A stretch of DNA of 64,000 nucleotides. Origin: Verrucomicrobiales bacterium. Lineage in GTDB: Bacteria; Verrucomicrobiota; Verrucomicrobiia; Verrucomicrobiales; V1-33. Of the stretch, positions 1 through 11,006 are shown one piece after another; within the stretch, counting starts at the first letter, position 1; every line of letters starts with the position of its first letter. Location: the NCBI GenBank assembly GCA_018003315.1, contig JAGNEJ010000010.1, forward strand, positions 11,044 to 75,043, read 5' to 3'. The translations under genes were made by a program, and so were the position numbers. Under the pieces are notes generated by a model. That model searched no databases and was not told the origin of the DNA. It saw only the letters and a list, made by a program, of their open reading frames with translations.

Positions 1-1
1 C

Positions 2-343
2 CGCGATTCCGAAGGAAAAGGCCGCCCCGATGGCGAGGTCTGCCTGAAGCTCGCCCACGGCCGCGCCCGCCTCATCGCCGTTTCCGCCGGCAAGCCGCTG
101 GCCTTCGCTGGCTGGGATGTCGTCGAGCAATGTGCCAAGCCCACCCGCCTCGCCGTCCACGCCGGAGCCGTCTATTATTTCCTCTGCGAAAACACCGCCG
201 CCGCGCGCGACCTCTCCACCCAGCTCCACTGGCGCCCGCGCTCCGATTTCTACGGCGAAAAAGGCTTCGGCTTCGGCTTCGCCAGCCCGCACCCGATGTC
301 CCCGGACATCCAGCAACTCGCCGGCTCCCTGTTCAAAATCTAA
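2..343 (+). CDS. cmr3: Type III-B CRISPR RAMP subunit Cmr3, C-terminal fragment (5' end outside window)
   Basis: Frame is open from the window edge to TAA at 341-343. Translation reads ...AFAGWDVVEQCAKPTRLAVHAGAVYYF...FYGEKGFGFGFASP..., a Gly-rich C-terminal RAMP loop. It sits directly upstream of cmr4-cmr5-cmr6. Confidence 0.55.
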   Translation, partial: RDSEGKGRPDGEVCLKLAHGRARLIAVSAGKPLAFAGWDVVEQCAKPTRLAVHAGAVYYFLCENTAAARDLSTQLHWRPRSDFYGEKGFGFGFASPHPMSPDIQQLAGSLFKI

Positions 344-368
344 CCTCAACCATCCAGCACAGCATCCC

Positions 369-1280
369 ATGAAATCACACCTCCTCACCCTCTACACCCG
401 CACCCCGCTCCATGTCGGCTGCGGCACCTCCGTCGATGTCGTCGATCTCCCCATCATGCGGGAGCGCATCACCAATTTCCCCGTCATTCCCAGCACCAGC
501 TTGAAAGGGGTGCTGCGCCAAGCCGGGCGCGACTATGCAAAATCCGACGGATCTGTCGGATCCGCCAAATACACACTCGCCGTGAACGACGTCCTATTCG
601 GCAACAAGGACGACGTGCAAAAAGATGCGGACGGCAAAGAGAAATTCCACGCCGGCTGCCTCCAGATCATGGAGGCCAAGCTCCTCGCCTTTCCCGTGCG
701 CTCGCTCGCCGGTTGCTTCGCCTGGCTCACCTGTCCCGCCGCCCTCCGCCGCTTCCAGCGCGACTCCGGCAAGACCTTCACCATCCCGGATGTGGCCCGC
801 GACCAAGCCATCGTCTCCAACGGCTCCGAACTCGTCGTGCAAGGCCAGAACATGGTCGTCCTTGAAGAATACGCCCTGAACACCGGCAACGAAGGCCATG
901 GTGACGTGGTGGCTGGTTTGAAGGATCTCGTCGCCGACTCTCTCTGGTCCGACAAACTCGCCAAGCGCCTCGCCATCCTCCACGACGAGGACTTCCAGCA
1001 CTTCGTCTCCACCTGCACCGAGGTCGTCGCCCGCATCGCAATCGACCCGGCAACGCGCACCGTGGGTGGTGGCGCTCTCTTCAACCAGGAAAACGTCCCC
1101 TGCGAGGCGCTCTTTTACAGCGTCTTGACGGTCCTCGCCCCGCGCCGCAACGACAGCGCCGCCGCGCCGGATGACTCCCTCACCGCCCTGTTCAAAGCCA
1201 ACGCCACCCTCCAGATCGGCGGCGACGAAACCACCGGCCACGGATTCTGCTCGGTCCACCACCAAACCCTCAACGCCTGA
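369..1280 (+). CDS. cmr4: Type III-B CRISPR RAMP backbone subunit Cmr4
   Basis: Internal ATG at 369 in the 117..1280 ORF. N-terminus is MKSHLLTLYTRTPLHVGCGTSVDVVDLPIMRE...PSTSLKGVLR, and the C-terminal G-rich loop is IGGDETTGHGF. These are classic Cmr4 RAMP motifs. Confidence 0.85.
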   Translation: MKSHLLTLYTRTPLHVGCGTSVDVVDLPIMRERITNFPVIPSTSLKGVLRQAGRDYAKSDGSVGSAKYTLAVNDVLFGNKDDVQKDADGKEKFHAGCLQIMEAKLLAFPVRSLAGCFAWLTCPAALRRFQRDSGKTFTIPDVARDQAIVSNGSELVVQGQNMVVLEEYALNTGNEGHGDVVAGLKDLVADSLWSDKLAKRLAILHDEDFQHFVSTCTEVVARIAIDPATRTVGGGALFNQENVPCEALFYSVLTVLAPRRNDSAAAPDDSLTALFKANATLQIGGDETTGHGFCSVHHQTLNA

Positions 1281-1287
1281 TCCCGCC

Positions 1288-1734
1288 ATGAAGAATCTCG
1301 ACCAAATCCGCGCCCACAACGCCCTCGCCCACAAGGACACAATCGCTGCGTCCCAGGGCGGCGGCGACGCCATCAGCGGCTTCCCCATGCTTGTCCTCAC
1401 CGACGGTCTGCTCGCCGCCCTTGCCTTTGCCTGTGAGTGGAAAGACTCGGACCAACAACCACCTGGAGATGCAGATTTGCGACGGCAGATTACACGGCCT
1501 GATCGCGAAGGTCGTAATCGCCAACAATGGCAAAAGCGCAAACACGAAGGCGAATACACCGTTGCCCGAGCCATCGCCGCGCATCTCCACACCCAAAACA
1601 ACCGCATCACCGCAGCCGCCACCGCCGACGACCTCGTCGCCGAACTCGCCGCCCAGGACAGCGACATCCTCCTCCGCCGCGCCACCGCCGAGGCCCTCGC
1701 CTTCCTCAACTACCTCAAACGCTTCGTCGCATGA
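1288..1734 (+). CDS. cmr5: Type III-B small subunit Cmr5
   Basis: About 148 aa and helical. Starts MKNLDQIRA and ends ...RRATAEALAFLNYLKRFVA. Its position between cmr4 and cmr6 is typical of Cmr5. Confidence 0.7.
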   Translation: MKNLDQIRAHNALAHKDTIAASQGGGDAISGFPMLVLTDGLLAALAFACEWKDSDQQPPGDADLRRQITRPDREGRNRQQWQKRKHEGEYTVARAIAAHLHTQNNRITAAATADDLVAELAAQDSDILLRRATAEALAFLNYLKRFVA

Positions 1735-2918
1735 GCACCTTCACCCTCAAACTCAACGCCGCCAAGCAATCCGCCTCCTGGCAGCTCGCCCTCGACAAGT
1801 ATCCGTTCAACTTGGGCAAACCAAATTCGCCCTCGCTGACGGAGCCGGATGACAGGGGCAAAGAACAAAGCATCAAGCCCAGGCGCCTGCGGGAAGTCCG
1901 CGACCGCTACACCGCCGCCAAACCGTCGCTCGACGCCGCCGCCAAGCGCCAGCAGGATTTCCTCGCCGTCCTCGCCCGCCAACACGGCCCGCGTTTCCGC
2001 CGCGTCACCTTGGTCAACTCCTCCCGCCTTCTCCTCCACCTCGGCCGCAGCAGCGTGCTGGAAAACGTCGGCCTCCACTGCGACCGCACCACCGGCCTGC
2101 CCGTCATCCCCGGCACCGCCGTGAAAGGCGTCATCAGCACCTGGGCGTGCTGGGTCGAGCATTTCAACGATGCCGATGGCTCGTTCCGGGAATTTATCGG
2201 GGATTCAGTGCAACGTCGCCATTTCACTCAAGCGGAGTCCCGTCTGGCCGCCGCCATCTTCGGCGACAACTCCGCATCCGGTTCCACCGCAGCAGGCGAA
2301 GTCGTCTTTCTCGGTGCGTTTCCCACCACGCCGCCGGTTCTCGAACTCGACATCGTCACTCCGCACACGGACGCCGCTGGACATGATCGGAATCCAGTCC
2401 CCAACCCATTTCTAGCCATTGCGCCCGGCACCGAATGGAGCTTCGCCTTTCTCGCCAACACACGAGACGGCAGTCAGGCGAACGCGTTCCTCGATCAAAC
2501 TGCCGCCTGGCTCTCCGAATCCCTCGAACAGTCCGGCATCGGCGCGAAAACCGCCGCCGGATACGGGCGCTTTCTGGTGCCGGAAATTTGGCAATCGCTG
2601 ACCCTCGATGAAGCGGCAAAGCAGGCTCTTGCCACAAAGCAGGAAAAAGAAAGTGCCGCCGCCGAGAGGCTTGCGGCAAGCCGTGCCTCGACCGTCGGAG
2701 AATTTTCCAACGAAACGGACTTCCAGAACCGTGTCCTCGCCCGCTTGAACAAACCCGGCGAATACCAAGTCCTCCAAACGGAAGTCCAAAAGATCGAATC
2801 CAACCCCGCCAACGCTCCGTGGATCGAAAAAATCACCGCCGCCCTCCGCGAAAACAAAGACGCCCGCAAGCGCCTCAAGGACAAAGATTGGTTCCCCAAA
2901 ACCTGGCTACCCCAATGA
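1731..2918 (+). CDS. cmr6: Type III-B RAMP subunit Cmr6 with extended C-terminus
   Basis: The ATG overlaps the cmr5 stop (ATGA at 1731-1734). RAMP motifs are LPVIPGTAVKGVIS and the G-rich loop GIGAKTAAGYGRF. About 115 further residues follow the loop. Confidence 0.8.
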   Translation: MSTFTLKLNAAKQSASWQLALDKYPFNLGKPNSPSLTEPDDRGKEQSIKPRRLREVRDRYTAAKPSLDAAAKRQQDFLAVLARQHGPRFRRVTLVNSSRLLLHLGRSSVLENVGLHCDRTTGLPVIPGTAVKGVISTWACWVEHFNDADGSFREFIGDSVQRRHFTQAESRLAAAIFGDNSASGSTAAGEVVFLGAFPTTPPVLELDIVTPHTDAAGHDRNPVPNPFLAIAPGTEWSFAFLANTRDGSQANAFLDQTAAWLSESLEQSGIGAKTAAGYGRFLVPEIWQSLTLDEAAKQALATKQEKESAAAERLAASRASTVGEFSNETDFQNRVLARLNKPGEYQVLQTEVQKIESNPANAPWIEKITAALRENKDARKRLKDKDWFPKTWLPQ

Positions 2919-3709
2919 AACTTCCATTCATCGAATATCCCTTCACGCTACTTACCCCCGCCATGATCGGCGGGGCTGAAGGAAAAGCGGCTCCTGCTGA
3001 AATGCGCGTGGCTTCCATTCGCGGCCAAGTCCGCTGGTGGCACAGGAAGGCAGGTCTTGTTCCCAACTGCAATCAAGTCTGGGGGCAAACGGAACCTGCC
3101 GTTGTCGCGAGCAAAGTGAGTCTGACGCTCGCGCCAACTACGCCTCCATCACATAGGGAGGTCGACATTCTCCCCCACAAACAAAGTGGATTCCGCGATT
3201 CCATTCTCCCACTACACAAACAATCCCTCATCCTCCGCCGCCTCGTCGGCTGTCAGCAGGGCGAGTGGGAAGCCGCACAGAAGGCCGTGAAACTCTGGCT
3301 CCTCCTCGGCGGCCTCGGTCTGCGTGTCAACCGCGCCGCCGGCAGCGTCTGGCCAGTCGGCGATTGGGTGCCCACCGACGAAGCATCGCTCAAAACCACG
3401 TTGACCCAGCTTGGCTACACCCAGCCCGTCTCCTTGGCCGACGCTTCCATCCTAGAACACAAGAACCTAGCCACTGATGTGTCCCACGCGAAGAAACTGC
3501 GCCACGCCGCCTCGGACACCGTGAGCGTGCCGAGATATTTCGGCAGCATCAAACCCCGCACTCCCTCCCCGCTGAAAATGAAAGTCATCCGCCTGGGTGC
3601 CAACCACCGCTTGCTCCTCACAGGCCTTTCACTCGCGGCCATGGCGGCGGCGCGCACGGCTCTCGGCACCTCCAAGCCTCTCGGCTCGGCGGCTTGGCAC
3701 ACACTCTAA
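2915..3709 (+). CDS. cmr1: Type III-B RAMP subunit Cmr1 (short form)
   Basis: The ATG overlaps the cmr6 stop (ATGA at 2915-2918). N-terminus is MKLPFIEYPFTLLTPAMIGGA...ASIRGQVRWWHRK, which resembles the Cmr1 signature. Confidence 0.6.
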   Translation: MKLPFIEYPFTLLTPAMIGGAEGKAAPAEMRVASIRGQVRWWHRKAGLVPNCNQVWGQTEPAVVASKVSLTLAPTTPPSHREVDILPHKQSGFRDSILPLHKQSLILRRLVGCQQGEWEAAQKAVKLWLLLGGLGLRVNRAAGSVWPVGDWVPTDEASLKTTLTQLGYTQPVSLADASILEHKNLATDVSHAKKLRHAASDTVSVPRYFGSIKPRTPSPLKMKVIRLGANHRLLLTGLSLAAMAAARTALGTSKPLGSAAWHTL

Positions 3710-3828
3710 CCCCTCACCACCCCCATGCCGCCCCAAAACCCAAACAGATCGGTCGGATCCGACCCATCCGGCCGCTCACCTCTCCTCAGCCCATTGACAC
3801 CAACGCACCACTGCACCATAGTGCAAAC

Positions 3829-4146
3829 ATGAACCGTCTCACCATCACGCTCGACGATGACCTCTATGCCATGGCGCGGGCCCACGCGATTTCCACAAAA
3901 ACCTCGCTGAGCAAGGCGATTGGGATCTTGCTGCGACAGCGCAACCCGGGCCTGCCGTCGCCAGCCGCGCCCAAGCTCGGCGATTCCTTCCACATCGACC
4001 CGATCACGCTCCTGCCGGTCGTTCAAGGCGATGGCCGACCCATCACGATGGAGGACATCCAACGTTCTCTGGATGACGAAGATGTCCGTCACTTGGAAAT
4101 GATGGGCCTCAGTCCGGAGGAGATCGAACGCGCGCTCAACCGATGA
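3829..4146 (+). CDS. vapB: VapB-like antitoxin (ribbon-helix-helix type)
   Basis: N-terminus is MNRLTITLDDDLYAMARAHAISTKTSLSKAIGILL. The stop overlaps the start of the downstream PIN gene (ATGA at 4143-4146). Confidence 0.6.
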   Translation: MNRLTITLDDDLYAMARAHAISTKTSLSKAIGILLRQRNPGLPSPAAPKLGDSFHIDPITLLPVVQGDGRPITMEDIQRSLDDEDVRHLEMMGLSPEEIERALNR

Positions 4147-4541
4147 CCTGGCTGCTCGATGGCAATGTTTTGATTGCGATGGCTGTGGTGGACCACCCGC
4201 ACCGCGCCCGCTGCCTCCGCTGGTTTGCCGGCATTGCATCCTTTGCCACCTGTCCGGTCACCGAGGGAACTTTACTGCGCCTGCACATGCAGTATGCCAG
4301 CGACAAATCCATTGCCGCCGCATGGCGCACCCTCGAAACCTACCACGCCCATCCCCGCCACGTCTCCTGGCAGGAAAATTTTTCCTACGCCGAGATCGAT
4401 CCCACCCGCCTCACCGGCCTCCGCCAGATCACCGATTCCTGGCTGGCCGAACTCGCCCGACGCCAAGGCGGCAGACTCGCCACCCTCGATGCCGCCCTCT
4501 CCGTCCTCTGGCCGGAGTCCGCCGTCCTCATCCCCGTCTAA
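4143..4541 (+). CDS. vapC: PIN-domain toxin VapC
   Basis: 132 aa. Starts MTWLLDGNVLIAM (PIN N-terminal acidic D) and contains ...ITDSWLAELARRQGGRLATLD. Typical VapC size, and it is coupled to the antitoxin gene. Confidence 0.7.
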   Translation: MTWLLDGNVLIAMAVVDHPHRARCLRWFAGIASFATCPVTEGTLLRLHMQYASDKSIAAAWRTLETYHAHPRHVSWQENFSYAEIDPTRLTGLRQITDSWLAELARRQGGRLATLDAALSVLWPESAVLIPV

Positions 4542-4649
4542 TTCCCCCATGCCGCAACCGATTTCACCCCGCCAACAACAAGGATTTCGCCGACCTCGGG
4601 TTTCGCCGCGTTTGGAACCTCTTGCCAGTAGTTGACCCACTCATACCTC

Positions 4650-5831
4650 ATGCCCTCAAGCCACCTTATCCTCACCGTCGGCACCGGCACCGCCGGGAAG
4701 CACTCCAATCTCGCGGCGGGTCTGCGGCGCACATTGGAACTCATCGCGCCGGAGAAATTCTGGCTGGTGCCGAGCACAGATGAGGTTTCCCAACTCACCG
4801 CCGAGTTGGTGCGCGAGGGGTTGTCGGGATTTCAGCCGTGGTCGGATGAGGTGCCGTATCGTTCCATCGCGCGTCCAGACTCGTTGGAAGACTGCCGACA
4901 GGCGGTGCGGGAGGTGATTTTGCGAGCGAGAGAAGGACTTCCGAAGGCGGCACGGCTGCTGGTGAATCCCACCTCCGGCACCAAACAGATGAGCGTGGGT
5001 GCCGCGCTCGCCGCAGTGGATGAGGGCGTGGGGGAACTCACCTTCACCGTCGGCCAGCGTGCGGACGGCGTGGTGATGACCGGCACCGAGACGCTGGAGA
5101 CCTTCGATGCCTCCGCCTATTTCGCCGAGCGCGACCGCGCCACCGCGCTGCACCTCGCCAAAGCCGGTGCATTCGCCGCAGCGGCCAGCATCGGTCGGCG
5201 GCACGTCAGCCTTACCGGTCTGGCCGATACCGCGCACTGCCTGCACGAATGGGAACGGCAGAACTACCGCGAAGCCCGCCGCATCGCCGCGCAAAGCCAA
5301 GCACCAGCGCTCGCAGCCGTGCGCCATGCCCTAGAGCAACTCGCCAAAGCCGTACAGAAGCCGGAGCCGCAGCCGCTGATCATCGCCGACATGCTGCACA
5401 CCGCCGATCTGCTGCATCGCCGCCGCGACTTTGAATCCGCCCTCGTTCTCGCCTGCCGTGCTCTGGAGATGGGCCTGCGCCTTGCCCTGTCTGCAAAGAC
5501 CGACCTGCACGAACCTTACAGCCAGCCCAAGCTCTGCGCCCTGCCCATCAGCCAGGGCATCAAAGACCGCTGCCGATCCGTCTCCCATGACGGCCAGCGC
5601 ACCATTCTCAACTTGAACACCGTCGCCAAGATTCTCACCGAACTCGGCCACGACCTCGGCGAATCGTTTTCCGCAGATGGGGAACTCCAGCGCCTCATCC
5701 GCGTGCGCAATGATCTCATGCACCAGGTCCGGGCTGTCACCGAGGCAGAAAGCCAGGGTGCGGTGCAGCGGGTGAAAAACCTGCTCGCTCCCTTGCAACT
5801 GCCGTCCACCGCTGCCCGTCCGGCCTTGTAA
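4650..5831 (+). CDS. csm6: CARF-HEPN ribonuclease, Csm6/Csx1 family
   Basis: CARF motifs are LILTVGTGT near the N-terminus and NPTSGTKQMS. The C-terminal HEPN R-x4-H motif is RNDLMH (codons 5706-5723). The ORF track starts at a TTG at 4632; the ATG at 4650 is preferred. Confidence 0.75.
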   Translation: MPSSHLILTVGTGTAGKHSNLAAGLRRTLELIAPEKFWLVPSTDEVSQLTAELVREGLSGFQPWSDEVPYRSIARPDSLEDCRQAVREVILRAREGLPKAARLLVNPTSGTKQMSVGAALAAVDEGVGELTFTVGQRADGVVMTGTETLETFDASAYFAERDRATALHLAKAGAFAAAASIGRRHVSLTGLADTAHCLHEWERQNYREARRIAAQSQAPALAAVRHALEQLAKAVQKPEPQPLIIADMLHTADLLHRRRDFESALVLACRALEMGLRLALSAKTDLHEPYSQPKLCALPISQGIKDRCRSVSHDGQRTILNLNTVAKILTELGHDLGESFSADGELQRLIRVRNDLMHQVRAVTEAESQGAVQRVKNLLAPLQLPSTAARPAL

Positions 5832-5834
5832 GCC

Positions 5835-7670
5835 ATGTCCACGCTGCTCGTTTCCCTCGGCACCTCGCCCGCCATCGTGCCGGAGGCGTTCCTGCTTCCT
5901 GGCGTTTCGTTCTCTGCCGTGCATGTGCTGACCACCGCGTCGGTCAAAGAAAGCGACCTCGATTTCATCGCGGAATGGTTCGCCGCCAAGGCACCAAGTG
6001 TCAGTCTTTCCTTCACCCGAGTAGCGGAATTCACCGACTTCAAGTCCGAGCATGACCACTTCCAGTTCGAGGAAGTGCTTTACCGCTGGTGGCTGGTGAA
6101 TCGGCCGACAGGCGAGTCCCCCCATGTCTGCCTGTCCGGCGGCTTCAAAACCATGAGCGCGGCCATGCAGAAGGCCGCCGCCGTGCTGGGAGCCGCAGAG
6201 GTGTTTCATGTGCTCTGCGACCTGCCATTCCAGCAGCAGCCGAAAACAGCAGAGGAAATCGAGACCGCCCAGGCCAGCGACCACCTCCATTGGATCAAGC
6301 TGGGAGGTGAATCCGGCTGGCCGCAATTCCGCGCCCTCCCGGCCGACCATTTCCCGCTGACCGAAACCCACCGCGAGGATGCCGTCCGTTGGGTTTCCGC
6401 CCCGGATTCCGCCTTTCGCGACCACCTCCGGGAAATCGTCGAACGCAGCCACAACATTGCCGGTTCCTGGGAAAACCTAGCCGATCTACCGTTTGCCTCC
6501 TTGGCGACATGGACTGCCGCCCAGTTGCAGTGGCTGCGGCAGCCGCTCGACCCGTTGGCTGATCGCGATTGGGTCGCCGCCCTGCCCAAGATCGACCTCC
6601 ACTGCCACCTCGGCGGCTTCGCCACCCATGGCGAACTCCTCGCCGAAGTGCGCGCGGCGGCGGAATTTCCGGAATCGCTTCCCCCGCTCGTCGAGCCCGC
6701 GCTCCCGGCCGGTTGGCCCTTCCCGGAAACGCCCGTCGACCTCGAAGCCTACCGCAAACTCGGCGATGCGGGCGGCTCCGCGATCCTCAAGGATCCCGGG
6801 TGCCTGCGTCGCCACATCGAGCGGCTCTACCAACATTTCCAGGAACAAAACCTCGTTTACGCAGAAGTCCGTTGTTCCCCGGCAAACTACGCCACCTCCA
6901 GCCGCTCCGCATGGCATGTCCTAGCCGACATCCGCGCCGCCTTCGAACAATCCCGCGAGGCGGCCATTTCCGATGGTCGCCCGGCTCCCTTGGTCAACCT
7001 CATCGTCATCGCCACCCGCCAGACCGGGGGCGACTTCCGCACCGGCATCCTACGCCATGTCGCGCTCGCCGCCACCGCGTTCGAACACTGGGGCGATGAC
7101 GCGAAACCCCGCATCGTCGGCGTGGACCTCGCCGGATTCGAAGACCGCGCCACCCGCGCCCATTATTTCCGCGACGACTTCATGCCCGCCCTGCGCCTCG
7201 GCATGGGTGTCACCGTCCATGCCGGGGAAAATGACGACGCCGAGGGGATCTGGAGCGCCATCCTCGACCTCAACGCCCGCCGCCTCGGCCACGCCCTGCA
7301 CTTGAGCGCCTCGCCATCCTTGCTGCGCAGCGTGGCGGACCGCCGCATCGGCATCGAGATGTGCCCCTACGCGAACCTCCAGATCATTGGCTTTCCGCTC
7401 GATGCAGCCGCTGGAAACTCCACGAAACCCTACCCACTCCAGAGCTACCTCGCGGCCGGCATCCCTGCCACCATCAACACCGACAACATCGGCATCTCCG
7501 CCGCCTCGCTCACCGATAACTTCCTCCTCCTACCGCGCCTCTGCCCCGGCATCACCCGGCTCGACGTGCTCCGGTTGCTGCGCAACGCCATCGACCAAGC
7601 GTTCCTCTCCACCGCCGCTCGCCGCAGCCTTCTCTCCGGAATCTCCATGAGATCCGTCCGATCCGACTGA
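5835..7670 (+). CDS. cad1: CARF-adenosine deaminase fusion (Cad1-like type III CRISPR accessory effector)
   Basis: N-terminal CARF motifs are LLVSLGTSPAIVPEA and CLSGGFKTMSAAM. The C-terminal half carries adenosine/AMP deaminase metal-site motifs: IDLHCHLGG (~6591-6617), TVHAGEND (~7210-7233) and INTDNIG (~7473-7493). Confidence 0.85.
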   Translation: MSTLLVSLGTSPAIVPEAFLLPGVSFSAVHVLTTASVKESDLDFIAEWFAAKAPSVSLSFTRVAEFTDFKSEHDHFQFEEVLYRWWLVNRPTGESPHVCLSGGFKTMSAAMQKAAAVLGAAEVFHVLCDLPFQQQPKTAEEIETAQASDHLHWIKLGGESGWPQFRALPADHFPLTETHREDAVRWVSAPDSAFRDHLREIVERSHNIAGSWENLADLPFASLATWTAAQLQWLRQPLDPLADRDWVAALPKIDLHCHLGGFATHGELLAEVRAAAEFPESLPPLVEPALPAGWPFPETPVDLEAYRKLGDAGGSAILKDPGCLRRHIERLYQHFQEQNLVYAEVRCSPANYATSSRSAWHVLADIRAAFEQSREAAISDGRPAPLVNLIVIATRQTGGDFRTGILRHVALAATAFEHWGDDAKPRIVGVDLAGFEDRATRAHYFRDDFMPALRLGMGVTVHAGENDDAEGIWSAILDLNARRLGHALHLSASPSLLRSVADRRIGIEMCPYANLQIIGFPLDAAAGNSTKPYPLQSYLAAGIPATINTDNIGISAASLTDNFLLLPRLCPGITRLDVLRLLRNAIDQAFLSTAARRSLLSGISMRSVRSD

Positions 7671-7702
7671 TCCGTCAGATCTCACACCCCGCTTCCACCG
7701 CC

Positions 7703-8887
7703 ATGTCTCACACCACCCTCATCCACCTCGTCAGCGGCGAGCGCATGCAGAACCTGCTGCCCTTGCTCGCCCTCAAGCCGCGCACCGTTTTCCAGCTTTG
7801 CAGCGATTCCCCGGCCATCCTCGCCGCTGCCGAGCACACCGCCGCTGCCGCCCGCCAGGCCGGCATCGAGGCCGATTTCCGCATCGAAAAACTTCCCGGT
7901 GCCACCCCCACCACCCAGGACGTCCGCCACGCCCACAAGCAGCTCCTCTCCGTCTTCCCCGGCGCGGTTGTCAACATCACCGGCGGCACCAAACTCATGT
8001 CGCTGGGTGCCTACCTCGGTGCCAACGAGTTCCATGATTCCCCCATCCTTTATTGCGACACCGCCAACCGCACCTTCGTCCAGGTCGGCGAAGCCCCCTT
8101 GCCGCCGCACATGAAATCCTTCCCGGAAGTCGCCTCCCTGCTCACCGTGCCCGTCGTCATGGCCGCCCAGGGCAAGCCCTTCCGCGAGGACGCCATCACC
8201 CCGGACCTGCTCGCCTTCGGCTCCGCCGCATGGGATCTCCGCTCACGCGACCACGAATCCATCGCCGCCTGGACCTCCCGCATCCGCAGCGCCGTGCCCC
8301 GCAAAAACGGCCGCGTCGAGAAAAGCAAACCGCTGCTCCGGCGCTTCCTCGCCACCCCGCTGCCCTTCCCGGAGAGCCCCGCCGCCATCGACTACCTCGA
8401 CGCCGCCGTCGCCGCCGGCCTGCTCGCCGTGGATCCCGCCGGCGCCGTCCGCATGATCGCGGATCCCAAACCCTCGTCCGTCGAACGCGTCTCCAACCTC
8501 CTCGATGGCGCATGGCTCGAACTTGCTGTCGCCGCCATGGCTGGAAATGCCACTCGCTACGGCGACCTCCACTGGAGCGTCCAGCCGCCCGACCAGACCG
8601 GGGCCGACTACGGCGAAACCGACCTCATCGCCGTGGATCGCCAAAAACTCAACCTCGCCGTCATCTCCTGCAAAACCAGCACCCAGCACGTCTCCACCCT
8701 CGAACACCTCTCCTCCTGGCGCGACCGCGCCCGCACCCTCGGCGGCTCGCACGCCGCCGGCCACCTCTGCCTGTTCCGCGCCAAATCCTCCGACGAAGCC
8801 GCCCGCCTCCACGCCATGGGCCGCACCATGGGCCTGCACGTCCACATCAGCGCGGAAATCCCCGCCCACTTCGCCGCCACCTCTTAG
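7703..8887 (+). CDS. can2: CARF-PD-(D/E)xK nuclease, Card1/Can2 family (DUF1887-like)
   Basis: N-terminal CARF motifs are LIHLVSGERMQNLLP and NITGGTKLMS. The C-terminal restriction-endonuclease-like core is YGETDLIAVDRQKLNLAVISCKT. Confidence 0.75.
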   Translation: MSHTTLIHLVSGERMQNLLPLLALKPRTVFQLCSDSPAILAAAEHTAAAARQAGIEADFRIEKLPGATPTTQDVRHAHKQLLSVFPGAVVNITGGTKLMSLGAYLGANEFHDSPILYCDTANRTFVQVGEAPLPPHMKSFPEVASLLTVPVVMAAQGKPFREDAITPDLLAFGSAAWDLRSRDHESIAAWTSRIRSAVPRKNGRVEKSKPLLRRFLATPLPFPESPAAIDYLDAAVAAGLLAVDPAGAVRMIADPKPSSVERVSNLLDGAWLELAVAAMAGNATRYGDLHWSVQPPDQTGADYGETDLIAVDRQKLNLAVISCKTSTQHVSTLEHLSSWRDRARTLGGSHAAGHLCLFRAKSSDEAARLHAMGRTMGLHVHISAEIPAHFAATS

Positions 8888-8924
8888 ATCCGTCAGATCT
8901 GTCGGATCATCTCTTCCACCACCC

Positions 8925-9551
8925 ATGCCAACCACCCTCGTTGCTGTCTCCGGCATGTCGCCCGCCATCCTCACCGAAGCCCTCTGGGCCCTCGCCGATG
9001 AGGAAACCGCTACCGTGCCGGACGAGGTCGCCTTCGTCACCACCGTCACCGGTGCTGCTAGGCTGGAGGAGCAACTCTTCACCCCGCGCCCGGAATGGGG
9101 CAGCCTCACGGTTTATGAAAACCTGCGCGCCTCCCTCGGCTCCGCGGACCACCAACTCATCGGCGCCGGCACTCCCCAAATATTCTCCATCAACGACGGC
9201 AGCGCCGACCGCGCCCCCCACCGAAGCCTCACCGGGCATTGGGATGCTTCCAACCTCACCGCCTACCCCACTCCAGCCCTCACGTTCTGGTTCACCACGC
9301 GTTTCCTTGCCGTCATCCCGGTTATTCTGATCGGCCTCATCCTCGTCGCCTCCGCCACCAAACAGTGCCGAATTCAAGTTGGCATCGAAGGCCTCGACAA
9401 TACCATGCGCGACCACCTCCGCCAAGGCACCCTCGGTTTGCACGGGAAATCATCGCTCCCCCCGCTGAACGCCAAACCCTCATCGCGAAACTTTCGCCCG
9501 CCCAGCGCTAACCGAACGCCCGCGTCACGTTTCCTGATGGAATTCGCTTGA
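8925..9551 (+). CDS. Stand-alone CARF-domain protein (NE0113-like); possible ring nuclease, regulator or decayed remnant
   Basis: Starts MPTTLVAVSGMSPAILTEALWAL, matching the Cad1 N-terminal CARF motif. A hydrophobic strand follows, then ASATKQC where the other three CARF proteins have GGxKxMS. About 208 aa with no effector domain. Confidence 0.5.
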   Translation: MPTTLVAVSGMSPAILTEALWALADEETATVPDEVAFVTTVTGAARLEEQLFTPRPEWGSLTVYENLRASLGSADHQLIGAGTPQIFSINDGSADRAPHRSLTGHWDASNLTAYPTPALTFWFTTRFLAVIPVILIGLILVASATKQCRIQVGIEGLDNTMRDHLRQGTLGLHGKSSLPPLNAKPSSRNFRPPSANRTPASRFLMEFA

Positions 9552-9594
9552 GCCGCCTCATCGCAGGGCTACACTTCGCCGCGTTTGTGCGAAT

Positions 9595-9667
<73 letters not shown>

Positions 9668-9750
9668 TGTTCACCCCGCAGCATTCCGGGCATCGCGCGG
9701 AGTCCGTCACTCGGTGCGGGAAGTTGGGACGTGATTTTCGATGAACGGTT

Positions 9751-9792
9751 GGTTCCGCGGCGGTTGACAAATTGCGGAACCCCTCTCATTTA
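9751..9792 (+). promoter_or_regulatory. Candidate promoter with flanking inverted repeat upstream of the aminotransferase gene
   Basis: TTGACA at 9764-9769, a 17-nt spacer, then CATTTA at 9787-9792. An 8-bp inverted repeat, GGTTCCGC (9751-9758) and GCGGAACC (9774-9781), brackets the -35 box. Confidence 0.25.
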
Positions 9793-9836
9793 CCCGCTCC
9801 CCGGATTCATTTTTTCATTTTCACTTCTGCCATCAC

Positions 9837-11006
9837 ATGGACCCAGTATCTGCCACCGTCGCCAATCTTGCCCCCTCCATCACCCTCGCGGTTACCAACC
9901 AGGCTGCGAAGATGAAAAAGGAAGGGGTGGATGTGTGCGGCTTCGGCGCAGGCGAACCGGACTACGACACGCCGCAGCACATAAAGGAAGCCGCGGTGCA
10001 GGCACTGGCCGAAGGAAAAACCAAATACACCGCCAGTGCCGGGCTGCTGGAACTGCGCGAGGCCATCTGTGAAAAACTCATCGCCGACAACAATCTGGAG
10101 TATTCACCGGATCTTGTCAGCGTGAACTGCGGTGCCAAGCACTCCTGTTACAATGCGATTCTGGCCACCTGCGGACCGGGCGATGAGGTCATCATTCCTG
10201 CTCCCTACTGGACCAGTTATCCCGAGATGGTGCGCCTGGCCGGGGCAGAACCCGTCATCATCCAGACCAAGCAGGAAAACGGGTGGAAGCTGACGCCGGA
10301 ACAATTCGAAGAGGCGATGAGCCCTTCGACAAAAATGATCATTCTGAATTCCCCCTCGAATCCAACCGGAGTGGTGTACACCAGGGAGGAACTCGCCGCG
10401 CTGGGAGAGGTGGCGGCGAGCGAGGACATCCTCATTCTTTCCGACGAAATTTACGAAAAACTCATCTACGACGGTGCGACCCATGCCAGCATTGCCAGCA
10501 TCAGCGATGAATTGAAACAGCTCACCATCGTCATCAACGGCTTTTCGAAAGCCTACAGCATGACCGGATGGCGCATCGGCTACACCGCCACTGCCAACCG
10601 CAAGATTGCGGCAGCCATCGACACGATCCAGAGTCACACCACGTCAGCGCCCGCCACCTTTGCGCAATGGGGCGCCCTGGCTGCGCTGCACGGCGACCAG
10701 CAGGTTGTTGAAGACATGCGGGAGGATTTCAACATTCGCCGCCAATACATGCTCAAGCGCATCGGGGAAATTGCCAACGTGTCCACCGTCGAGCCCAAAG
10801 GTGCTTTTTACTTTCTGGTCAACATCGCCAAAACCGGGCTCAAGAGCACGAATTTTTCCGAAAAACTGCTCAGCCGGCACCATGTGGCGGTTGTTCCCGG
10901 CATTGCATTCGGCGCGGATGACACCGTCCGGTTCAGCTATGCCTGCGGGATGGATGTCATCAAACGCGGGCTCGACCGTTTTGCGGAATTCTGCCAGGGT
11001 TGGTGA
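9837..11006 (+). CDS. Class I pyridoxal-phosphate-dependent (aspartate-type) aminotransferase
   Basis: Motifs GAGEPDYDTPQHIKEAA, IIPAPYWTSYPEM, NSPSNPTG and the PLP-lysine region NGFSKAYSMTGWRIGY. Confidence 0.85.
   Translation: MDPVSATVANLAPSITLAVTNQAAKMKKEGVDVCGFGAGEPDYDTPQHIKEAAVQALAEGKTKYTASAGLLELREAICEKLIADNNLEYSPDLVSVNCGAKHSCYNAILATCGPGDEVIIPAPYWTSYPEMVRLAGAEPVIIQTKQENGWKLTPEQFEEAMSPSTKMIILNSPSNPTGVVYTREELAALGEVAASEDILILSDEIYEKLIYDGATHASIASISDELKQLTIVINGFSKAYSMTGWRIGYTATANRKIAAAIDTIQSHTTSAPATFAQWGALAALHGDQQVVEDMREDFNIRRQYMLKRIGEIANVSTVEPKGAFYFLVNIAKTGLKSTNFSEKLLSRHHVAVVPGIAFGADDTVRFSYACGMDVIKRGLDRFAEFCQGW

What the first reader, a model, noticed from the sequence alone, without database searches (positions are those of the whole stretch)
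8925..9551. Terminal CARF-only protein with a degenerate ligand-loop signature
The N-terminus (LVAVSGMSPAILTEALWAL) closely mirrors the Cad1 CARF start. The second CARF signature reads ASATKQC, whereas the paralogs have GGFKTMS, GGTKLMS or SGTKQMS. No effector domain follows, and the C-terminal roughly 60 aa are low-complexity. A CARF-only protein at the end of a multi-effector operon could be a ring nuclease (Crn1-like) or cOA sponge that resets signalling. It could also be a regulator, or a decaying remnant next to the tRNA gene.
Basis: inference. Interest (0 to 1): 0.6.

Follow-up and report, generated by a model that had tools for sequence, protein, structure and literature searches.

The report
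Truncated CARF gene fused to foreign tail
The supposed stand-alone CARF sensor at the end of this CRISPR type III operon is an accidental fusion: the first 97 codons of a normally ~360-codon CRISPR-associated CARF gene are joined in frame to the last ~110 codons of an unrelated membrane-protein gene, so it is most likely a dead remnant and not a ring nuclease.

Summary
The ORF (window 8925-9551, +, 208 aa) exists, and its N-terminus is a genuine CARF start of the NE0113/TIGR02584 family. That homology stops at residue ~97. Every relative found is 350-440 aa long. Syntenic Cmr loci in three related genomes carry a full-length 351-380-aa gene at the same terminal position.

Residues 97-193 are homologous to the C-terminal transmembrane tail of an unrelated ~610-aa GTPase-like protein family (library-wide E 5e-17; pairwise E 5e-20 and 1e-17). 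The "degenerate ligand loop" ASATKQC (residues 142-148) lies at the end of that family's transmembrane helix. It is not a CARF motif. The family's invariant GGRKTM loop and THVLV strand are absent in all six frames.

The ORF is therefore an in-frame deletion or rearrangement chimera with its junction near 9204-9218, just upstream of tRNA-Thr. It retains 2 of the 5 core strands seen in the model of the parent's CARF domain and almost certainly cannot bind cyclic oligoadenylate.

An intact paralogue lies elsewhere in the genome (contig C143), next to cas1 and a CRISPR array. This is an ordinary finding of low interest.

The parts
8925..9551 (+). Chimeric ORF, 208 codons (P0001)
   Evidence: Translation. 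The exact sequence is on record from NCBI and Logan assemblies, on 4 contigs.
8925..9215 (+). 5' stump (codons 1-97) of an NE0113/TIGR02584-family CARF gene. It covers beta1-alpha1-beta2-alpha2 and a hairpin only.
   Evidence: TIGR02584 model positions 2-65 of 209, E 6.5e-15, 55.7 bits, below the 80.65 cut-off. BLASTP against P0019 aligns residues 1-97 to 1-96 at 51% identity, E 1e-26. The A2 family profile matches at positions 6-82 of 381 only.
9204..9218 (+). Fusion junction (codons 94-98, ADRAP). The two homologies abut at Ala97.
   Evidence: The NE0113 alignment ends at residue 97. The tail-family alignment starts at residue 97. Codon table.
9213..9503 (+). 3' end (residues 97-193) of a gene of an uncharacterised ~610-aa GTPase-like membrane-protein family
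   Evidence: Exhaustive phmmer: P0023 E 5.1e-17 (query 96-194 to 508-609 of 617) and P0079 E 3.8e-9. BLASTP: 43% identity, E 5e-20, and 45% identity, E 1e-17. In the own genome P0079 matches only here, at its residues 501-587.
9291..9359 (+). Predicted transmembrane helix (residues 123-145) inherited from the tail family
   Evidence: Best 19-residue Kyte-Doolittle mean is 2.66. It is the only confident helix in the AF2 model. It aligns to the hydrophobic segment of P0023 and P0079.
9348..9368 (+). ASATKQC, the alleged degenerate CARF loop. It is in fact the end of the TM helix and the start of the tail.
   Evidence: It aligns to VSSCLRKH of P0023 and VALRLGGR of P0079. No NE0113 profile match here in any frame.
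9595..9667 (+). tRNA-Thr(TGT), 44 bases after the ORF's stop. A GC-skew boundary lies here.
   Evidence: ARAGORN. Composition. No duplicated tRNA 3' end elsewhere on the contig.
7703..8887 (+). Upstream neighbour: Card1/Can2-like CARF-nuclease. It is the last intact gene of the Cmr effector operon.
   Evidence: PF23400 CARF_Card1, E 2.5e-6, and a sub-threshold PF09002 match, E 0.0015.

Best explanation
The ORF is a fusion pseudogene. The type III-B (Cmr) locus once ended, as its relatives do, with a ~350-380-aa gene of the NE0113/TIGR02584 family, made of a CARF domain plus a C-terminal alpha/beta domain. A deletion or rearrangement with a breakpoint after codon ~97 removed the rest of that gene. 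It also removed whatever lay beyond it; in relatives that is cas1, cas2 and the CRISPR array. The stump was joined in frame to the last ~110 codons of a ~610-aa GTPase-like membrane-protein gene lying just upstream of tRNA-Thr. The reading frame therefore runs on to that gene's own stop codon and looks like a 208-aa gene.

If translated, the product would have 2 of the 5 core strands seen in the model of the parent's CARF domain and would lack the ligand-binding GGRKTM loop and the THVLV strand. It would also have one orphan transmembrane helix and a short tail. It should neither bind nor cleave cyclic oligoadenylate.

Shown: the two homologies, their abutment at residue 97, the absence of the rest of either parent gene, and full-length genes at the same position in relatives. 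Inferred: that a single deletion made the junction, and that the product has no function.
For: (1) Only the first third matches CARF models: TIGR02584 positions 2-65 of 209, below cut-off, and PF09623 gives no hit. PADLOC CARF models of 189-353 positions match only within their first 2-58 positions.
(2) A 46-sequence family profile run with all filters off over six frames of 8880-9840 matches only profile positions 6-82 of 381. The next best hit has a negative score. The own-genome six-frame search agrees.
(3) All homologues among 5.8 billion and 1.8 billion proteins cover only query residues 1 to ~70-107. Apart from fragments, they are 350-440 aa.
(4) Genomes G024, G030 and G039 have cmr genes (cas10-cmr3-cmr4-cmr6-cmr1 in G024 and G030; cmr6-cmr1 at the start of the stretch fetched from G039), in G024 also a CARF-HEPN gene 55% identical to the window's. 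In each, a full-length 351-380-aa homologue follows.
(5) Residues 97-193 match the extreme C-terminus of P0023 and P0079. Full-length members of that family (600-667-aa frames) occur in four genomes of the same order, whereas G000 holds only this tail.
(6) The family's invariant G136, G137, K139 and H161 have no counterpart in the ORF.
(7) The parent-family model is confident (pLDDT 89.6) and CARF-like: its top PDB matches are the Sis0455 ring nuclease, the Cad1 CARF domain and Sso2081. Its core strands at 128-133, 158-164 and 200-204 all lie beyond the breakpoint.
(8) P0001 folded alone gives pLDDT below 50 over residues 1-119.
Against: No strain-level relative with the intact arrangement was found, so the ancestral gene order and the deletion end-points are inferred. 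The fusion is in frame and keeps the native start and native stop, so translation cannot be excluded. The genome is a 155-contig metagenome-type assembly, so a mis-join at the junction is not formally excluded, although the same protein is on record from NCBI and Logan assemblies. The single-sequence AF2 model is weak evidence by itself.
Confidence: 0.88

Rival explanations
1. Assembly chimera: the junction at ~9204-9218 was created by the metagenome assembler joining two unrelated fragments. The organism then has either an intact NE0113 gene here or a contig break.
For: G000 is a 155-contig assembly with 2.56% estimated contamination. Both parent genes are incomplete and abut exactly.
Against: The identical 208-aa protein is recorded on 4 contigs from NCBI and Logan sources. 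Both halves share the same strongly negative GC skew and high GC3 as the cas genes upstream, and composition changes only at the tRNA. No repeat in the genome matches the ORF DNA that could have misled an assembler. The missing parts of both genes are nowhere else in the assembly.
Confidence: 0.05
2. A functional neo-gene: the half-CARF plus TM fusion is expressed. It would act, for example, as a membrane-tethered peptide that pairs with and modulates the CARF domain of a neighbouring effector or of the intact paralogue.
For: It has an in-frame fusion, a retained native start within an operon and a retained native stop. A genuine TM helix is present.
Against: Only 2 of the 5 core strands in the parent's CARF model remain, and the invariant ligand-loop residues are missing. 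No other protein in the databases has this architecture; the cluster has 1 member. The N-terminal part is predicted with pLDDT below 50.
Confidence: 0.04
3. One reading: a complete stand-alone CARF protein with a degenerate ligand loop that works as a Crn1-like ring nuclease or cOA sponge.
For: The N-terminal CARF motif is real. The gene sits at the end of a multi-effector cOA operon. Its size is under 250 aa, like known ring nucleases (PMC12409355 used a 250-aa cut-off).
Against: The CARF homology ends at residue 97. ASATKQC belongs to the TM tail of another family. The GGRKTM and THVLV elements are absent in all frames. Orthologous positions carry genes of 351-380 aa.
Confidence: 0.02

Closest known systems
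NE0113 / TIGR02584 (Pfam PF09623 Cas_NE0113) CRISPR-associated CARF proteins; PADLOC models 'CARF5--CARF' and 'CARF5--CARF_TM'
   Same: Residues 1-97 are 44-58% identical to the N-termini of family members. They include the AVxGxSPAxxTE beta1-alpha1 motif and the position at the end of a Cmr operon.
   Different: Members are 350-440 aa, with a complete CARF domain (GGRKTM loop, THVLV strand) and a ~120-aa C-terminal domain. This ORF keeps only the first ~27% and scores below the curated cut-off (55.7 against 80.65 bits).
Crn1-family ring nucleases (Sso2081, PDB 7ygh; Sis0455, PDB 7z55)
   Same: The modelled parent family has a CARF fold whose best PDB match is Sis0455, with Sso2081 also matched.
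   Different: Crn1 proteins are complete dimeric CARF domains of ~170-190 aa. The ORF here lacks the C-terminal half of the fold, so the cA4 site cannot form. Ring-nuclease activity of the parent family itself was not tested here.
Uncharacterised ~600-660-aa GTPase-like membrane proteins (P0023, P0079; L026-L029), encoded after a ~600-725-aa GTPase-like partner
   Same: Residues 97-193 align to their last ~100 residues, comprising a conserved RSLxGxW...YPxP...FWFT motif, a TM helix and a tail. The ORF ends about where they end.
   Different: The N-terminal ~500 residues, which include the P-loop (GERRSGKT in P0079) and the first TM helix, are absent, and so is the partner gene. The family has no Pfam domain above threshold except MMR_HSR1 in one member. 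It has only faint LeoA/LeoBC-like P-loop hits, E about 1e-3.
Cam1 and other CARF-plus-transmembrane effectors
   Same: A CARF-derived segment and a TM helix lie in one polypeptide.
   Different: In Cam1 the CARF domain is complete and the membrane part is native to the family. Here the CARF is a fragment, and the TM helix is demonstrably borrowed from an unrelated gene.

Membership tests
NE0113 / TIGR02584 / PF09623 CARF family | N-terminal beta1-alpha1 motif (AVxGxSPAxxTE...WAL) | tested here: met
   Invariant columns G10, S12, P13, A14, T17, E18, W21 and A22 are all present. TIGR02584 positions 2-65 match at E 6.5e-15.
NE0113 / TIGR02584 / PF09623 CARF family | Whole-protein score above the curated cut-off | tested here: not met
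   55.7 bits against the 80.65 cut-off for TIGR02584. No PF09623 hit at E <= 1.
NE0113 / TIGR02584 / PF09623 CARF family | Ligand-binding loop SIAGGRKTM (invariant G136, G137, K139 in the 46-sequence alignment) | tested here: not met
   Invariant columns. The profile search over all six frames of 8880-9840 finds nothing beyond profile position 82. ASATKQC aligns to another family.
NE0113 / TIGR02584 / PF09623 CARF family | THVLV strand (invariant H161) and the remaining core strands of the Rossmann-like sheet | tested here: not met
   The only candidate, HVLV in another frame at 9281-9337, scores -5.8 bits against the profile and overlaps the tail-family homology. The parent model places strands at 128-133, 158-164 and 200-204, all beyond the breakpoint.
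NE0113 / TIGR02584 / PF09623 CARF family | Length of ~350-440 aa with a C-terminal alpha/beta domain | tested here: not met
   The ORF is 208 aa, with no match to profile positions 83-381.
Stand-alone ring nuclease (Crn1-like) | Complete CARF fold able to dimerise around cA4 | tested here: not met
   Only 97 residues of CARF remain. The AF2 model of P0001 has pLDDT below 50 for residues 1-119. Compare the parent model and its PDB matches.
Stand-alone ring nuclease (Crn1-like) | cOA binding and cleavage | not testable with these tools
   A biochemical assay is needed.
~610-aa GTPase-like membrane-protein family (P0023/P0079) | C-terminal conserved motif plus TM helix plus tail | tested here: met
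   43-45% identity over 84-100 residues, E 5e-20 and 1e-17. Library-wide E 5.1e-17.
~610-aa GTPase-like membrane-protein family (P0023/P0079) | N-terminal ~500 residues with the P-loop, and the upstream partner gene | tested here: not met
   In G000, P0079 matches only at its residues 501-587. tblastn with two partners and four family members against the whole assembly finds only the tail.

The most novel reading that the evidence does not exclude
The in-frame fusion is expressed as a membrane-anchored half-CARF peptide. It has been co-opted, for instance, to pair with and dampen or localise one of the three neighbouring cOA-activated effectors or the intact NE0113 paralogue. That would be a new way to tune type III signalling.
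Probability: 0.03. Interest if true: 0.5.

Novelty: already known. Interest (0 to 1): 0.1.

Why it matters
The main value is as a correction. This ORF should not be counted as a ring nuclease, a cOA sponge or a new minimal CARF protein. It would pass naive filters: an N-terminal CARF hit, a length under 250 aa, and a position within a type III locus. One published ring-nuclease survey used such a length cut-off (PMC12409355), so this illustrates an annotation pitfall.

Biologically, it shows that this Cmr locus, with three cOA-activated effectors (CARF-HEPN, Cad1 and Card1-like), has lost its terminal NE0113-family gene, a candidate signal-degrading or regulatory component, and whatever followed it. 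Any such function would have to come in trans from the intact paralogue next to cas1 and the CRISPR array on contig C143.

Tried and rejected
(a) Frameshifted remainder of the CARF gene. tblastn of ten full-length homologues against 8801-9800 gave a recurrent weak hit of the THVLV region in another frame at 9281-9337 (E 0.12). I rejected it for three reasons. It lies upstream of the alleged GGxK-like motif, so the order is wrong. It overlaps the significant tail-family homology. It scores -5.8 bits against the family profile with filters off.

(b) Repeat or mobile element as the source of the C-terminal part. P0021 (1596 aa, 8 stretches) is a low-complexity tandem-repeat protein and a spurious hit. 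The ORF DNA is unique in the genome.

(c) tRNA-targeted island integration. There is no duplicated tRNA-Thr 3' end on the contig. The cas locus lies 5' of the tRNA, not 3'.

(d) Synteny with same-genus genomes, to recover the ancestral state. Only the aminotransferase gene (9837-11006) is conserved. The neighbours are scattered and no tRNA-Thr lies beside it in relatives, so this was uninformative.

(e) Closer relatives of the tail. None were found in 400 genomes sampled across the phylum, in genome contigs with P0023, or by word search with residues 97-208.

(g) A Cam1-like or 'CARF_TM' membrane effector. I rejected this because the CARF domain is incomplete and the TM helix is foreign.

Full report
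**The observation.** The + strand carries an ATG-started ORF at 8925-9551, 208 codons long and kept as P0001. It starts 38 bases after the stop of a Card1-like CARF-nuclease gene (7703-8887). It ends 44 bases before tRNA-Thr(TGT) at 9595-9667. The quoted N-terminal string and the string ASATKQC (residues 142-148, window 9348-9368) are both present. They match Csm6-HEPN/TIGR02710, adenosine deaminase plus Cas_NE0113, and the Card1 CARF and endonuclease domains. Further upstream on the contig are cas10, cmr3, cmr4, cmr6 and cmr1. The setting, the last ORF of a type III-B multi-effector operon, is therefore correct.

**How much of a CARF domain is present.**
- NCBIfam TIGR02584 (cas_NE0113) matches only residues 5-70, to model positions 2-65 of 209. 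The score is 55.7 bits, below the curated cut-off of 80.65.
- Pfam gives no hit at all.
- PADLOC CARF models of 189-353 positions match only within their first 2-58 positions.
- A six-frame search of the whole assembly with TIGR02584 finds no further piece near the ORF.
- I built a profile from 46 full-length relatives (alignment A2, 381 positions) and ran it with all filters off against the six frames of 8880-9840. Only profile positions 6-82 match (105.5 bits, E 1e-33). The next best hit has a negative score.
- The residues that are invariant in that family after position 100 are G136, G137 and K139 of the SIAGGRKTM loop and H161 of THVLV. None has a counterpart here.

**Whether relatives are longer.** They are.
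- The word-indexed search of 5.8 billion proteins finds no relative of similar length. It finds sixteen relatives of 365-411 aa, all PF09623, each covering only 33-40% of the query.
- The exhaustive phmmer search of 1.8 billion representatives gives 296 hits. The NE0113-type hits cover query residues 1 to ~70-107. Apart from obvious fragments, they are 350-440 aa.
- In 60 related genomes, matches cover residues 1 to ~60-107 and, with one exception (118 aa, G009), lie in open frames of 373-465 aa.
- In G024, G030 and G039 the homologue (351, 359 and 380 aa) lies downstream of a syntenic Cmr gene set. In G024 it lies shortly after (one small ORF between) a CARF-HEPN gene that is 55% identical to the window's. 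In G030 and G039 it is followed downstream by cas1.

**What the rest of the ORF is.** The exhaustive search also returned two proteins of 617 and 609 aa (P0023 and P0079). They match query residues 96-194 and 96-180 at their extreme C-termini (E 5.1e-17 and 3.8e-9).
- Pairwise BLASTP against P0023 gives 43% identity over residues 97-193, aligned to 509-608 of 617 (E 5e-20).
- Pairwise BLASTP against P0079 gives 45% identity over residues 100-183, aligned to 505-588 of 609 (E 1e-17).
- The shared features are an RSLxGxW...YPxP...FWFT motif, a ~23-residue hydrophobic helix (residues 123-145, Kyte-Doolittle mean 2.66) and a short polar tail.
- ASATKQC lies at the end of that helix and aligns to VSSCLRKH and VALRLGGR in the two relatives. 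It is not a CARF loop.
- The best NE0113 alignment (P0019, 51% identity, E 1e-26) ends at residue 97, exactly where the tail alignment begins. This places the junction at codons 94-98, window 9204-9218.

**The tail family.** Full-length members (600-667-aa open frames) occur in four genomes of the same order. There they follow a ~600-725-aa partner gene. One member reaches Pfam's MMR_HSR1 GTPase threshold. P0079 has a P-loop. PADLOC gives only faint LeoA/LeoBC-like hits at the P-loops. The family is otherwise uncharacterised. In the window's own genome, neither the first ~500 residues nor the partner gene exists anywhere.

**Structure.** P0001 folded alone is poor (mean pLDDT 47.5). Residues 1-119 are below 50, and only the long helix from ~117 is confident. 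This is weak evidence but consistent with the rest. The parent family, modelled on P0019 with alignment A2, is confident (pLDDT 89.6, pTM 0.82).
- Its CARF domain spans ~1-215, with strands at 2-8, 34-39, 128-133, 158-164 and 200-204.
- A separate alpha/beta domain spans 224-331.
- Its best PDB matches are the ring nuclease Sis0455 (7z55), the Cad1 CARF domain and Sso2081.
- The stump therefore keeps two of the five core strands and none of the ligand-contacting loop.

**Interpretation.** The ORF is an in-frame chimera of two gene fragments. It is most simply explained by a deletion or rearrangement that removed the 3' three-quarters of the terminal NE0113-family gene, everything that followed it, and the 5' five-sixths of a ~610-aa gene lying before tRNA-Thr. 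Both halves share the C-rich coding-strand skew and high GC3 of the cas genes, and composition changes only at the tRNA.

The same protein is on record from NCBI and Logan assemblies on four contigs, and the DNA is unique in the genome. These points argue against an assembler artefact but do not exclude one. Translation cannot be excluded either, because the native start and stop are retained. A function as a cOA sensor, sponge or ring nuclease is very unlikely.

**Context in the genome.** An intact paralogue (373 aa, 45% identical in the shared N-terminus) lies on contig C143. It sits directly upstream of cas1 and a CRISPR array of at least 22 repeats. A second NE0113 remnant, with an internal deletion and a premature stop, lies on contig C109.

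**Comparison with the literature.** Crn1 is a cA4-cleaving CARF protein, and Csx14-like proteins are grouped with it. A recent survey of ring nucleases applied a 250-aa maximum length when annotating them (PMC12409355). An ORF like this one would pass such a size filter while being non-functional.

**Verdict.** This is an ordinary gene remnant of a known family and of low interest.

Noticed in passing
G000 contig C143 (L001 1489-2610 = C143:5632-6753; array at C143:9089-10691): A full-length NE0113-family paralogue (373 aa, GGFKTM and HVLV present) lies directly upstream of cas1. A CRISPR array of at least 22 repeats follows. It was the only array my simple k-mer scan of the assembly found. 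The Cmr locus on C145 has no array or adaptation genes of its own.
   Followed up: partly
G000 contig C109:1411-1584: A second NE0113 remnant. It has an 83-codon frame whose start matches model positions 1-31. It then jumps to positions 85-109 and hits a stop, which indicates an internal deletion. This gene family has been degraded more than once in this genome.
   Followed up: partly
P0022 (209 aa, JGI) and P0020 (181 aa): Other short database 'TIGR02584 family' proteins are also stumps. P0022 keeps the CARF domain through GGRKTM and then switches to a sequence ending like an outer-membrane beta-barrel protein. P0020 diverges after ~130 residues as if frameshifted. Short members of this family in databases should be treated with suspicion.
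   Followed up: no
L029 8310-12200 (-), L027 5825-9815 (+), L028 2406-6030 (+), L026 8104-9906 (-): An uncharacterised gene pair: a ~600-725-aa P-loop protein followed by a ~600-630-aa P-loop protein with C-terminal TM helices (in L026 only the second gene was noted). It has no Pfam domain beyond one MMR_HSR1 hit and only faint LeoA/LeoBC (Eleos, dynamin-like) similarity. It may be a dynamin-like membrane GTPase pair.
   Followed up: partly
window ~1-9550 versus 9600 onward: The + strand of the whole cas region has a strongly negative GC skew (-0.2 to -0.4) and 64-71% GC. Just after the ORF, at tRNA-Thr, this switches abruptly to skew near 0 and 55-60% GC.
   Followed up: partly
window 9827-11006 and flanks: The class I/II aminotransferase gene (9837-11006) is 85-87% identical at protein level in same-genus genomes. 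Neither its neighbours nor the tRNA-Thr are syntenic there, so gene order is heavily rearranged within the genus.
   Followed up: partly
window 8053-9330 (+), 8243-9109 (-), 8505-9551 (+): Long overlapping open frames (288-425 aa) cross the Card1-like gene and the chimeric ORF in other frames. They are proline/arginine-rich translations typical of high-GC DNA and have no homologues, so they should not be called as genes.
   Followed up: no
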